Assembly: GCA_038087875.1 (NCBI GenBank)
Contig: CM075991.1
Coordinates: forward strand, 10,294,001 to 10,358,000
Length of the DNA: 64,000 nucleotides
Reading direction: 5' to 3'
Source: Malacoraja senta
Taxonomy: Eukaryota
Shown: positions 18,398-30,142 of the stretch, in pieces
Layout: the number at the start of each line of letters is the position of its first letter
Position numbering within the stretch: position 1 is the stretch's first letter
The notes under the pieces: generated by a model
The model's database searches: none
What the model was told of the DNA's origin: nothing
Seen by the model: only the letters and a program-made list of their open reading frames with translations
Position numbers and translations under genes: made by a program

Positions 18398-18858
18398 CTG
18401 GAGAGGGTCCAGGGGAGGTTTGCAAGAATGGTTCCAGGAATGAGCGTTTGTCGGCACTGGGCCTGTCCTCGCTGGAGTTTAGAAGGATGAAGGGGAACCT
18501 CATTGAAACTTACCGAACAGTGAAAGGCTGGGATAGAGTGGATGTGGAGAGGATGCTTCCACTAGTGGGAGGGTCCAGGACGAGGTCATATTCTCAGAAT
18601 TAAAGGAAATGAGGAGGAATTCCTTTAGTCAAGAGGGTGGTGAATCTGTGGAATTATTTGCCTCAGAGGGCTGTGGAGGCCAAGTCCATAGATGTTTTTA
18701 AGGCAGAGTTAGACAGATTGTTGATTAGTATGGGTGTCAGGGGTTATGTGGAGAAGGCAAGAGAACGGGGTTAGGAAGGAGAGATAAATCAGCCATGTTT
18801 GAATGGCGGAGTAGACTCGGTGGGCCGAATGGCCTAATGCTGCCCCTATTACTTATGA
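18398..18858 (+). mobile_element. CR1 LINE 3' fragment ending ~13 bp from the exon 8 donor
   Basis: LERVQGRFARMVPGM..LGLSSLEFRRMKGNLIETY and CR1 3' UTR. Confidence 0.85.
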
Positions 18859-18872
18859 CCAATACATCTCAC

Positions 18873-18991
18873 CTCCAGTGCAACTTCCTGAACATGTTGA
18901 AATAAGTCCAAGTCTTTCTCTGTCACAATGTCTTTGCTCAGCGATTGGTCATCCTCATTTTCATGCTTGCAGCCCCACGGGCCCTGATTGT
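18873..18991 (-). CDS. KAT6A: KAT6A coding exon (exon 8 equivalent)
   Basis: tctgcag|ACAATCAG...CTGGAG|gtgaga; 119 nt, phase 1->0. DNQGPWGCKHENEDDQSLSKDIVTEKDLDLFQHVQEVALE aligns to recalled human [40 protein letters not shown]. Confidence 0.94.
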
Positions 18992-19433
18992 CTGCAGATT
19001 CCGAAACAAAAACATTTTATTAACGAAGGAACCTTCCTTCAATAAAACCCTCCTGCAATCAAGCATGCAGGTGCAGGCTGAATGAGGAACTGACAACATC
19101 AATGTATTGATGTAATTGCCAAAAATCAAGGGAATAATGTTATGGCACTTACTTCCACAAAACATTGCAACCAACTTATGGGATAAAATGGCAGGTAGTT
19201 TAATACTTTCCTGTTGTCCATTAGTTTGGTTTCTGATGTTCTGTAATGTTTGTTGGTGTGGCTGGAGATACACACATCCTTTCCCATTGAAACAGTATGC
19301 GTGTCAGCCACAGTTTGACAGTCGATAGTGACCCAGCGGAGGATGCACGGAATGCGGAACGTCATATTGCTGAGGGCTTCACTCTGAATTATAACCTTCA
19401 GAGTTCAAATGCTGAAGGTCCGGTGAAACTCAC

Positions 19434-19472
19434 CTGTCTCAGATGGCTCTGCACCATTTCCCAACCAACAGG
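19434..19472 (-). other. Candidate 39-nt symmetric phase-1 cassette exon of KAT6A
   Basis: gcttctcctcag|CCTGTTGG...GAGACAG|gtgagt; adds ACWLGNGAEPSET in frame with no stop. No homology evidence. Confidence 0.3.
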
Positions 19473-20893
19473 CTGAGGAGAAGCATTCTCAAGACTCTGC
19501 CACTGCTCTGCCGCTTGAACAGGCTTCCTGGAGGTTGACATCAGAACAAGGGTTGATGTGCCCTCCCATCCCCTTTCTCTCTCACTGGGGAAGCACCTCA
19601 ACTCTGTTTGAAGCATCCTCCGCAATGCATGAGATAAGTCCAGGAACTCATCACTGGCAGGGATGGCAAAGTTTATCAAGAAACTGAAATGATATAATAA
19701 GCCTATATAACCAGCTTAAAAACTGTTGAAGTGCCAAACAGAGTCAATATCAATTACAGTTTAGGAAATACCATGTGTACAAACAAATATAAAAGGCAAC
19801 ATGAGATGCAGCAGAATGCAATAGCGGCTGGAATCAAATAGATTTGGAAGCATATTTGTAGTACAAAAGTTAGAAAGAAGCTCAATTGACTCAATTCAGT
19901 GTTTTAACTTTGTGATATTACTCCAATTATTTCCACACCAAATTTCCTCTGAGCAAACTAGCCCTGCAGTGTGGTAGGTACACTAGTGAGATAGCACGCT
20001 CCACTGGAAAGCATCGAGGGCTCAATTGTCAAAATGGAGGTTCAGAGATGACCATTATTGTGCCCTGGGACTTACGTGCGATGTGAAAGGGAATTGGCGG
20101 GAGATCAATTATGTTTTCTTTTTAAACTTTTGATGAAAAGCTGCCATTTTCAACTTAAACAACAGCAGAGACGTGATCACAACCAACAGTTGTCTTTCTC
20201 ACAATATCCAGGCATCGGGGCGGTCCATTTCATCTTACTTCTACCGATCCTTATGTTAAAAGGCTTTGGATTAAAAGTAAAGGCTACCACATGCAATTTT
20301 CAACGGTAAAATAGATAATTGCTGATTATCTGTTCTTATCTTATCTGTTCTTATCAATCTACAAGGGATAAGAATACATCAGCCAACTCTACCGTGCGAA
20401 CGCTTTCCACTTTAAATGGGTGTTTTGCTAATGCCATGAAAGAGATGCTCAATGGGAGTAATGTTAGCACAGTGCCATTACATGCATTTTACATTGCTGC
20501 TTTTTTTGGAGGTAGATTCAAGAGATTAGGCATACACTGTTGCCCTTGTGTGTTGCGACTGCACCACCTCGCTCCATATTTTTCATGACCCAGCCAAATT
20601 CAAGTTAAAATGGTGGGAGACTGAAAGGTACACAGCAAGTCTGTCAGTATTTGACAAAGAGTTGTACTGACAGGTTGGACGGTCAATCTACCTTTTCTCT
20701 TCCCAATTTTGATGTAGCTTCTGTTTTTCCTTATTGTACAGAAACGATGTTGAGCAGAGCGACTTTCATGGCATAAGCCCACCCGCTTCCTCTTTCAAAA
20801 GGCAAATAGCGACTGAAGCACCCCAAAAACAGCGCAACATGAAGCCAGTTTCTAGTGCTAGCGAGGCGTGGCAGCATGGTGTTCGCTTCTTAC

Positions 20894-21433
20894 CCTTGTC
20901 CTCGGCACTCTTACTCCTTTCTAATTCCACGTTTCCCTTCCTGTGCCAAAGGAACTCCTTTCCGCGTCTCATTTTACACCGGCTGCCCCTTATTGCTTTC
21001 TCTCTCACAGAAGGCGGCCGCAAATAAGGAGAGCGCGGCTTAACCGCCATCTCTATTGAAGTGCTGAGTCGCTGGTGAGGTGAGGTTTGTAAAACGCAAC
21101 TGGTTTTCTTGCTACTGTCCACCCTGTGGCCTGGGAAGACTGTGTTATCAACAGATGGACATGGCTCACAAGGTATAAGGCGAGGAGGAGTTAACTCATA
21201 GTCTGCTTCACCAGTGATATTGGGAGTGCAAAATGAGGACGGAGAGTCAAGTGGTTGCCTTCTTAACGTGGGCATTGTGTGCACACTTAATCTGCCAGTG
21301 AATGTCAGCTCACTGTGACCAACAAGGCTAGAACAGGAAGATGGTTTGAAGCTACTTAAATGCCAGCTTGGTGCTGGTAAATAAATCTCAGGGGATATTG
21401 GGCATGCAGGGATTAATGAGTTCAGTGCAATAC
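20894..21433 (-). CDS. KAT6A: Candidate alternative in-frame 540-nt extension of KAT6A exon 7 to a distal donor
   Basis: The frame stays open past the proximal donor. AAG G|GTAAGA donor at 20893-20888 is in the same phase (1) as the proximal donor and upstream of the stop at 20766-20768. Confidence 0.62.
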
Positions 21434-21753
21434 CTGTGGGCCATGTGCCGTTGTCAGAAGTGCTTGATTTTCGTGGCCCCTTTTTCTTGAGCCTGTATTG
21501 CTCAGCTAAGTCCAGAAGTTCTCCCCGAGGCTTGCGGCCATCGGGGGAAGGGGTGAAGAATTTGCTAAGGCCGTCAATGAGCCCTTTGGTTTTCTTATTC
21601 ATTTTCAGGCGGGATGATTTGCTGATTCGTGAGTTCAAAGTACCCAGTCCATCCAAACGACCCGACTTAGAGGAAGTGAGTGACAGGATTTTGCGTTTGC
21701 GCCCTCGACCAGGACCTTGTCTCTCTTTGTCGAATGACTGAGAACCTTTTGAT
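21434..21753 (-). CDS. KAT6A: KAT6A coding exon (exon 7 equivalent), PHD-MYST linker; proximal donor form
   Basis: cttcttccacag|ATCAAAAG...CCCACAG|gtattg; 320 nt, phase 2->1. [23 protein letters not shown]...[65 protein letters not shown] and RKSSTSD..WPT are KAT6A-type rather than KAT6B-type. Confidence 0.93.
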
Positions 21754-29231: not shown

Positions 29232-29489
29232 TTATTCATCTTTACTGGAAAAAAACTAATCGCATCAGACTTTATTGATTGCCACGAAGACCCGAACACA
29301 CCACTGGGGATGAAATATACAAGTTTCATCTTCAGCATGCAGCCCATAAAAATGTGGACAGAGAATGTTAAATTGGAGACGGACCGGGGCAGCATTGGAA
29401 CAGAGCAGTCAAGAGATTACAGAGCATGGTTCAAAATTGTGGGTTGAAATTGAGTCGATTTTTCTAAACTTTCCTTTTCTGACCAGCAG

Positions 29490-29780
29490 AGTGGCGCAGC
29501 GGTAGAGTTGCTGCCTTACAGCACCAGAGGCCCGGGTTCGATCCTGACGACGGGTGCTGCCTGTACGGAGTTTGTACGTTCTCCCTGTGACCGCGTGGGT
29601 GTTCTCCGGGTGCTCCGGTTTCCGCCCACACTCCAAAGACGTGCAGATTCGTAAGTTAATTGGCTTTGTAAGATGTAAAAATGTCCCCAACGTGAAGGAT
29701 AGTGCTGGTGTACAGGGTGAACGCAGGTCAGCGCGAACTCGGTGGGCCGAAGGTTTCCGCACTGTCTCTATAACGTCTAA
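29490..29780 (+). mobile_element. HE1-like V-SINE
   Basis: GTGGCGCAGCGGTAGAG..GGTTCGATCC head, V domain, CR1-type tail. Confidence 0.85.
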
Positions 29781-29782
29781 AG

Positions 29783-30142
29783 GACGACAGATGGCGCAAT
29801 GGGCTAAGTGTTCGGCTGGCAACCGGAAGGTAGCCGGTTCGAATCCCGCTTGGAGTGCATACTGTCGTTGTGTCCTTGGGCAAGACACTTCACCCACCTT
29901 TGCCTGCGTGTGAATGTGTGTGAATGTGTGTGAATGTATGTGAGTGATTGGTGGTGGTCGGAGGGGCAGTAGGCGCAGATTAGCAGCCACGCTTCCGTCA
30001 GTCTGCCCCAGGGCAGCTGTGGCTACAGAAGTAGCTCACCACCACCGAGTGTGACTGAGGAGTGAATGAATAATGCGATGTAAAGCGCCTTGAGTATTAG
30101 AAAGGCGCTATATAAATCCCATCCATTATTATTATTATTATT
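29783..30142 (+). mobile_element. tRNA-derived CORE SINE with L2-type tail, AFC-like
   Basis: A box TGGCGCAATGG, B box GGTTCGAATCC, CORE GTGTCCTTGGGCAAGACACTT, (GTGTGAAT)-type repeats, CCCCAGGGCAGCTGTGGCTAC, TGTAAAGCGCCTTGAG..AAAGGCGCTATATAAAT, (ATT)n tail. Confidence 0.85.

What the first reader, a model, noticed from the sequence alone, without database searches (positions are those of the whole stretch)
20894..21753. KAT6A exon 7 has an in-phase distal donor adding 180 aa, mirroring KAT6B/MORF isoforms
Seen: the frame stays open for over 220 codons beyond the proximal donor (ACAG|gtattg, a modest site). A strong AAGG|GTAAGA donor sits exactly 540 nt downstream in the same phase 1, before the stop. 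The extension is Ser/Pro-rich then basic, with no recognisable TE. Recalled: human KAT6B uses alternative 5' sites in the homologous exon, and its long and intermediate isoforms differ by about 183 aa at the equivalent position, whereas canonical human KAT6A uses the 320-nt form. Inference: the long/short donor switch predates the KAT6A/KAT6B duplication and persists in this KAT6A.
Basis: partly seen in the sequence, partly recalled or inferred. Interest (0 to 1): 0.72.

Follow-up and report, generated by a model that had tools for sequence, protein, structure and literature searches.

The report
Shark KAT6A retains KAT6B-type long exon
This shark's gene for the chromatin enzyme KAT6A has a second in-frame splice site that would add 180 amino acids, a form already predicted in carpet-shark databases and likely inherited, together with the optional piece of its sister gene KAT6B, from before the two genes split.

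Summary
Observation confirmed. The 320-nt exon (21753-21434, minus strand) has an in-frame AGG|GTAAGA donor 540 nt further on, inside a frame that stays open 222 codons past the first donor. The gene is shark KAT6A. RefSeq models of five carpet-shark species join the same distal site to the next exon. Their extension is 181 aa (59-61% identical to the window's) where complete; the zebra-shark model starts inside it. Two close relatives keep all 540 nt without stop or indel. The insert resembles the KAT6B long-isoform insert in start point, length (174-186 aa), an end motif and a degenerate internal motif. Global-alignment z is 4.3-5.1 for relatives but only 3.0 for this copy; BLASTP and HHalign are not significant. 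None of 107 non-shark KAT6A proteins carries a related insert. Use of the distal donor in this species is not shown; the one RNA-like run, from a relative, shows only the short junction. Best reading: an ancestral two-donor switch kept in both shark paralogues and lost from bony-vertebrate KAT6A. The scan reported this before in a bamboo shark (e1-8025094). The isoform is already in databases; my literature searches did not find the evolutionary link.

The parts
21434..21753 (-). KAT6A exon 7 core (320 nt; human exon numbering recalled), constitutive part between the double PHD finger and the MYST domain
   Evidence: 88-89% identical to carpet-shark KAT6A-like; spliced contig of a relative covers it
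21546..21590 (-). Conserved motif [15 protein letters not shown] shared by KAT6A and KAT6B; first copy of a motif that KAT6B's long insert repeats
21428..21433 (-). Proximal donor GTATTG (phase 1, after W-P-T); relatives C and D read C instead of T at +4
   Evidence: joint 18991 to 21434 in run X1; variant at 21430
20894..21433 (-). 540-nt alternative extension encoding 180 aa (Ser/Pro/Thr-rich, then basic), likely homologous to the KAT6B long-isoform insert
21219..21263 (-). Degenerate relic ([15 protein letters not shown]) at the offset where the KAT6B insert carries its second KGLFDGLSHIYT motif
   Evidence: best-scoring placement in 5 of 6 shark extensions, second best in this one; scores low (1.4-11.4 against 35-38 for the first copy)
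20895..21005 (-). Basic last 37 codons of the extension; best-conserved part, aligns without gaps to the end of the KAT6B long exon
   Evidence: last 40 aa 82% identical to carpet sharks against 52-55% for the first 140; HHalign best segment 143-179 against 144-180
20888..20893 (-). Distal donor GTAAGA (phase 1, after A-E-D-K)
   Evidence: no difference listed here in relatives A, C, D; same junction AEDK|DNQ in RefSeq models of five carpet sharks
20766..20893 (-). Intronic tail of the open frame (42 codons, then stop); not part of the spliced long form
   Evidence: the frame ends at the same place in P0001
18873..18991 (-). Next exon (119 nt), shared acceptor for both donors

Best explanation
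Exon 7 of this shark KAT6A has two in-frame donors, and the distal one likely yields a long isoform whose extra 180 residues are likely the same ancestral segment that KAT6B splices in and out. Shown: both donors, the open frame, the same junction in carpet-shark RefSeq models, and long and short KAT6B models at the homologous site in chimaera and coelacanth. Inferred: the pre-duplication KAT6 gene had both donors; KAT6B kept the segment under strong constraint; shark KAT6A kept it as a faster-evolving, probably disordered linker with a conserved basic end; bony-vertebrate KAT6A lost the distal donor and frame. Predicted working: the weaker proximal and stronger distal sites compete for the spliceosome, both products escape nonsense-mediated decay because 540 nt keeps the frame, and the long form roughly doubles the linker between the histone-reading double PHD finger and the MYST catalytic domain, tuning their coupling or adding a basic chromatin contact. 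No new folded domain is predicted. The function is untested.
For: (1) RefSeq long forms with junction AEDK|DNQ: Hemiscyllium ocellatum X1/X2 (2041, 2036 aa; short X3 1860), Chiloscyllium punctatum X1 (2037; short X2/X3 1856, 1851), Rhincodon typus X1 (2032), C. plagiosum (1756), Stegostoma tigrinum X2 (1566). Passages of PMC5737279 say that NCBI's pipeline then required alternative variants to be supported by one long alignment or by RNA-seq of one sample. (2) The frame is kept at 59-61% amino-acid identity with only small in-frame gaps. (3) Relatives C and D: no indel and no stop in 540 nt; 39 distinct changes over three relatives, 16 synonymous and 23 not, omega about 0.52-0.59, p 0.025-0.059. 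(4) Same start point (W-P-T|G against chimaera KAT6B W-S-T|G), and length 180-181 against 174-186 aa. (5) Mean global score of the window and Hemiscyllium extensions against 8 KAT6B inserts exceeded 300 of 300 shuffles under three shuffling schemes, z 5.5-6.2. Against local shuffles z was 5.1, 5.0 and 4.3 for relatives and 3.0 for the window; 106 unrelated KAT6A windows gave mean -0.09, sd 1.11, maximum 3.0. (6) The exon-end 16-mer of carpet sharks scores 26.6 against KAT6B exon ends; 0 of 11,922 control 16-mers reach 26. (7) tblastn with chimaera and coelacanth KAT6B runs 35 and 61 residues past the proximal donor. (8) None of 107 non-shark KAT6A-type proteins carries a related insert, and 23 of 23 read-through ORFs of bony-vertebrate type stop 7-94 residues after the donor. 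(9) The double PHD finger speeds acetylation by the MYST domain at least 8-fold in MOZ (PMC3902925, passages).
Against: BLASTP of the extension against two teleost KAT6B inserts was not significant (E 0.14, 0.05). HHalign gave probability 0.2% and E 0.28 in local mode, and nothing in global mode. The window's own copy is borderline: 8 of 613 unrelated low-complexity windows score as high, and an unrelated repetitive Otolemur insert scores the same -3.5; 6 of 11,922 control 16-mers reach its end score. The end motif was picked by eye before it was tested. The one RNA-like run (relative A) shows the proximal joint, and one of its contigs reads unspliced through the distal donor (20821-21071); contigs cannot show absence. 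Most substitutions in the extension change the amino acid. The absence of stops in close relatives is expected by chance 22-30% of the time. No outgroup was tested, and nothing here tests function.
Confidence: 0.72

Rival explanations
1. The segment is ancestral but in this lineage is an unused or merely tolerated relic: the distal donor is rarely chosen, the residues do nothing, and the frame survives through slow shark evolution or only to avoid producing a frameshifted transcript.
For: Only the proximal joint was seen in run X1. Omega is about 0.55 with marginal p. The internal KAT6B motif has degenerated. KAT6B inserts are 53-68% identical from chimaera to bony vertebrates, while the KAT6A extension is already at 59-61% between shark groups. 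Bony vertebrates appear to do without it.
Against: Between Hemiscyllium and Rhincodon the extension is 90.6% identical, the same as the constitutive post-MYST (90.0%) and acidic (90.5%) regions. Against the window's species it is 59-61%, near constitutive low-complexity stretches at 63-72%. The last 40 aa are 82% identical. The only models seen for Rhincodon and C. plagiosum are long.
Confidence: 0.14
2. The shark KAT6A extension is coding but arose on its own from intron sequence; its likeness to the KAT6B insert is chance plus shared Ser/Pro and basic composition.
For: Local searches are not significant. Identity is only 21-29%. An unrelated low-complexity insert reaches the window copy's raw score. 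The protein atlas gave no usable hit.
Against: Start point, length, gap-free end motif and internal motif offset all agree. The signal survives 10-residue local shuffles and real-sequence controls for the relatives.
Confidence: 0.09
3. The distal donor mainly serves transcripts that start inside the extension and make an N-terminally truncated KAT6A (MYST domain onward, without winged-helix and PHD domains).
For: Stegostoma XP_048378701 (1566 aa) begins at a Met inside the extension and uses the distal junction, while its X1 is the short form. An in-frame Met before P-T/R-L-R is present in all 6 aligned extensions.
Against: Four other species have models that run from the exon core through the whole extension. 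The Met used in the Stegostoma model is Ile in the window. The Stegostoma model could reflect partial transcripts or a local break, which I could not inspect.
Confidence: 0.05

Closest known systems
KAT6B (MORF/MYST4) splice variants MORF, MORF-alpha, MORF-beta
   Same: An optional in-frame insert at the same exon position between the double PHD finger and MYST; 174-186 aa against 180-181; same phase; related end motif. Long and short KAT6B models exist in chimaera, coelacanth and amniotes.
   Different: This is the KAT6A paralogue. The insert is only about 22-29% identical, evolves faster and has lost the second KGLFDGLSHIYT motif. PMC2190771 (passages) lists three variants and says that their function was uncharacterised; it gives 292 and 109 aa as the differences from the longest form, whereas the 183-aa long-minus-intermediate figure is recalled and was not checked on human KAT6B here. 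No equivalent of the third, shortest variant was looked for.
RefSeq predicted long KAT6A-like isoforms of carpet sharks (XP_060712673, XP_060712677, XP_072410284, XP_020386712, XP_043537474, XP_048378701)
   Same: Orthologous extension and identical junctions.
   Different: Automatic predictions with no description found in print. The window's species is more distant (59-61% identity in the extension), which widens the range beyond carpet sharks.
Bony-vertebrate KAT6A (MOZ)
   Same: Same 320-nt exon core, proximal donor position and next exon.
   Different: No related insert in 107 proteins, and the read-through frame closes within 7-94 residues.
Loss or retention of ancestral splice choices after gene duplication (PMC4494069, abstract)
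   Same: An ancient alternative-splicing event kept in both paralogues or resolved in one.
   Different: That study covers mutually exclusive homologous exons; this case is an alternative 5' splice site, lost from one paralogue in one lineage only.

Membership tests
KAT6A orthologue | Groups with KAT6A rather than KAT6B on the PHD and MYST domains | tested here: met
   Carpet-shark KAT6A-like sits in the A group at 100/100 (14 rows, no outgroup, the window's protein itself not a row). The window's exons match it at 79-100%. KAT6B exons map to other contigs.
KAT6B-type long/intermediate donor switch | Two in-frame donors, the first at the homologous position of the exon | tested here: met
   W-P-T|G/D in the window and carpet sharks; W-S-T|G/D in chimaera KAT6B.
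KAT6B-type long/intermediate donor switch | Insert of about 180 aa | tested here: met
   180-181 aa against 174-186 aa in 8 KAT6B inserts.
KAT6B-type long/intermediate donor switch | Insert sequence homologous to the KAT6B insert | tested here: inconclusive
   Global, position-anchored tests are positive for relatives (z 4.3-5.1) and borderline for the window (z 3.0); BLASTP and HHalign are not significant. Likely, but not shown by standard local searches.
KAT6B-type long/intermediate donor switch | Intact second K-G/A-L-F-D-G-L-S-H-I motif inside the insert | tested here: not met
   Present in 8 of 8 KAT6B inserts; only a low-scoring relic at the same offset in shark KAT6A.
KAT6B-type long/intermediate donor switch | Both junctions expressed in this species | tested here: inconclusive
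   No RNA holder was listed for this species. A relative shows the proximal joint only. The distal joint is supported indirectly by RefSeq models of other sharks.
KAT6B-type long/intermediate donor switch | Present in the pre-duplication ancestor (outgroup has the segment) | not tested
Exonised transposable element | Multiple genomic copies or a transposon protein domain | tested here: not met
   One match in the genome, itself (with its caveat on common words); no Pfam family.

The most novel reading that the evidence does not exclude
The ancestral vertebrate KAT6 exon carried two copies of an unrecognised binding motif (KGL-I/F-DGL-S/T-x-F/I-F/Y-T), the second switched on by the distal donor. 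The splice choice is then a valency switch for a partner of the PHD-MYST linker. KAT6B kept it, shark KAT6A shows the intermediate stage (frame and basic end kept, second motif eroded), and bony-vertebrate KAT6A lost it. This would give the first sequence-level handle on what the human KAT6B long isoform does.
Probability: 0.3. Interest if true: 0.62.

Novelty: new member of a known kind. Interest (0 to 1): 0.4.

Why it matters
KAT6A and KAT6B are disease genes whose most visible structural difference in the N-terminal half is KAT6B's optional insert; a 2007 paper called the variants' function uncharacterised. If the reading holds, the insert is not a KAT6B invention but an ancestral feature that bony-vertebrate KAT6A lost. 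The residues shared across both paralogues (the basic end motif, the repeated internal motif) are then the ones to mutate first. The result is evolutionary context for a known gene pair rather than a new mechanism, and the isoform already sits in automatic annotations.

Tried and rejected
Homologue search with the extension alone among 502-2000 aa proteins: none of 285 candidates scored. This was a length-cap artefact, since the cluster representative is 2036 aa. RNA: no RNA holder listed for this species. Run X1 of a relative, labelled 'RNA? (probably DNA)' but carrying a spliced CT..AC joint, gave no distal joint; its extension contigs have depth 3.9 and 4.6 against 125 for the spliced contig and 2.2 for a deep-intron contig. 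Contig depths cannot rank parts of a gene and lack of cover proves nothing. Own-genome KAT6B exon for a DNA-level comparison: not found with three queries or in 17 fetched stretches near the KAT6B pieces; assembly gaps lie beside both pieces. Protein atlas: no usable hit. Pfam: none. Indel test: 11 listed deletion rows for relative D in the remaining 1902 nt of intron against 0 in 540 nt gives P 0.04-0.06; merging adjacent rows to about 8 events gives about 0.10 (hand arithmetic), and 19 rows were hidden, so the test is only suggestive. Identity figures for residues 1701-2036 were dropped because the own genome's last exon shifts frame after a poly-Q run. The Otolemur 178-aa insert was rejected as unrelated (repetitive, z 1.9). 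The Colius and sturgeon mid-length linkers were judged by eye to be an intron read-through and an extra piece after the next exon. Literature: searches found no paper on a long KAT6A isoform or on the motif. Passages of PMC12678635, PMC9454415, PMC10297931, PMC8580094 and PMC11861323 gave nothing on these isoforms. Supplements were not read, and subscription papers are not in the library. No structure prediction was run.

Full report
Observation. On the minus strand an exon starts at 21753 after CCACAG. A first donor (ACAG|GTATTG) closes it at 21434, 320 nt. A second donor (AAGG|GTAAGA) closes it at 20894, 860 nt, exactly 540 nt later. Either form joins exon 18991-18873 in frame without a stop. 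The frame runs 222 residues past the first donor. It is the longest of 157 stop-free stretches of at least 60 codons on this strand of the window, and 180 open codons arose in 1 and 5 of 20,000 simulations. With a recalled donor matrix the distal site is the best in-frame GT of the interval. The extension found only itself in the genome and no Pfam family.

Gene identity. The exon core is 88-89% identical to KAT6A-like proteins of Chiloscyllium and Stegostoma and about 55-64% to tetrapod KAT6A, so the source is a shark. On a 14-row PHD plus MYST tree these shark proteins group with bony-vertebrate KAT6A at 100/100. The window holds six further matching exons. KAT6B lies on two other contigs; its homologous exon was not found, and assembly gaps lie beside both pieces.

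Is the long form real? A search centred on this exon among 1020-3248 aa proteins (best 120 of 512 listed) returned a 2036-aa Hemiscyllium isoform, 180 residues longer than the Chiloscyllium short form used as query. Its cluster holds long models of H. ocellatum, C. punctatum, C. plagiosum and Rhincodon typus, and a Stegostoma model that starts inside the extension; all end the exon at AEDK and continue DNQ. H. ocellatum, C. punctatum and Stegostoma also have short models. Passages of PMC5737279 describe NCBI's pipeline as then requiring transcript support for alternative variants. I could not see the evidence behind these particular models. The window's extension is 59-61% identical to them, 82% over the last 40 residues. 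Two unnamed relatives at 3-5% DNA divergence cover the whole 540 nt with no indel, no stop and no listed change at the distal donor. Over three relatives 16 of 39 distinct changes are synonymous, omega about 0.55, p 0.025-0.059. This is weak purifying selection. The rate matches other low-complexity parts of KAT6A: 90.6% against 90.0% and 90.5% between Hemiscyllium and Rhincodon, and 59-61% against 63-72% from the window's species. So the segment is not clearly decaying. Against expression: no RNA run was listed for this species, and the one spliced run of a relative shows the proximal joint plus low-depth contigs over the extension, one of which reads through the distal donor. Contigs cannot show absence or level, so use of the distal donor in this species is inferred.

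Is it the KAT6B insert? Chimaera and coelacanth KAT6B have both long and short models at the same point (SMWST|G or |D). Eight KAT6B inserts are 174-186 aa against 180-181 here. Local methods fail: BLASTP E 0.05-0.14 and HHalign E 0.28, although HHalign's best segment is the gap-free diagonal at the two exon ends. Position-aware tests succeed. The mean global score beat 300 of 300 shuffles in three schemes. Against 10-residue local shuffles z is 4.3-5.1 for three relatives and 3.0 for the window, while 106 control windows reach at most 3.0. On raw score 0 of 613 real low-complexity windows reach the carpet-shark copies, but 8 of 613 reach the window's copy. The end 16-mer (GKGNVELGRNKSAEDK against GKGSLAHGRIKRDQDD) scores above all 11,922 control 16-mers for carpet sharks, and 6 controls reach the window's version; this motif was noticed by eye first. 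The KAT6B insert repeats the exon's own KGLIDGL..FFT motif, and the best match to that second copy in 5 of 6 shark extensions falls at the same offset, though with low scores. These sequences are related, so they are not independent tests. Homology is likely, with the window's copy the most diverged.

Distribution. Of the other 107, one has a long linker (Otolemur, repetitive and unrelated) and two have mid-length ones that I judged unrelated by eye. All 23 exon read-through ORFs of amniote or teleost type that I scored stop 7-94 residues after the donor. They are 18 plus 5 of the 16 cluster members added, unnamed and typed by resemblance, and one looks chimeric. Caveats: one search was capped at 2000 aa, only 120 hits were listed per search, and no ray, chimaera or gar KAT6A and no cyclostome KAT6 was seen.

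Mechanism. Shown: two in-frame donors, conservation among sharks, annotated junctions in other species. Inferred: donor competition gives two stable mRNAs; the long one roughly doubles a linker that is probably disordered (from composition) between the double PHD finger and MYST, and adds a basic patch. Since the PHD pair speeds MYST acetylation at least 8-fold in MOZ (PMC3902925, passages), tuning of this coupling or of chromatin contact is my best guess; it is untested. The simplest history is two donors in the ancestral KAT6, retention in KAT6B and in shark KAT6A, and loss in bony-vertebrate KAT6A.

Known and new. KAT6B's splice variants are published (PMC2190771, passages). Ancient splice choices kept or resolved after duplication are a known pattern (PMC4494069, abstract). 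The shark isoform is in RefSeq. Seven searches found no paper on a long KAT6A isoform or its link to KAT6B; supplements and subscription papers were not seen. An earlier agent of this scan reached a similar reading in a bamboo shark, which I saw only after my own tests; a search by sequence found nothing. I agree with it on homology but find little support for its word 'decaying'. Verdict: real, first reading supported, new member of a known kind, interest 0.4.

Noticed in passing
KAT6B proteins P0102, P0181, P0108, P0109, P0129, P0028, P0029, P0030; window 21546-21590 and 21219-21263: The KAT6B long insert holds a second, highly conserved copy of the exon's KGL(I/F)DGL(S/T) motif. No listed paper contained either peptide string.
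   Followed up: partly
P0245 (Stegostoma XP_048378701): A RefSeq model that starts at a Met inside the extension and uses the distal junction, giving a protein without winged-helix and PHD domains.
   Followed up: partly
G000:C3823:121937-165687 and G000:C14:17875231-17908994: The genome's KAT6B is split over two contigs; its middle exons were not found, and 200-N gaps lie beside both pieces.
   Followed up: partly
L021:5854-8556 (G000:C15, last KAT6A exon): The frame shifts just after a long poly-Q run, probably an assembly error in a CAG repeat; the poly-Q tract itself is long.
   Followed up: no
window 19428-19433 (minus strand): The strongest donor-like site of the intron (CAG|GTGAGT). One upstream frame is open for about 95 codons, but no acceptor or transcript evidence was established.
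   Followed up: partly
window 18700-18860: A very high-copy repeat (SINE-like by recall) begins just after the 119-nt exon; it drew most of the contigs laid.
   Followed up: no
window 29412-30035 (minus strand): A 208-codon stop-free stretch in an intron upstream of the short PHD exon; not examined, possibly repeat-derived.
   Followed up: no
P0203 (Otolemur UniRef100_H0WI07): A 178-aa repetitive insert at the same junction in a primate KAT6A model, similar in length but unrelated in sequence; probably an annotation artefact.
   Followed up: yes
P0007: An unnamed ORF with a KAT6B-like first half and a KAT6A-like second half of this exon, possibly an assembly chimera.
   Followed up: no
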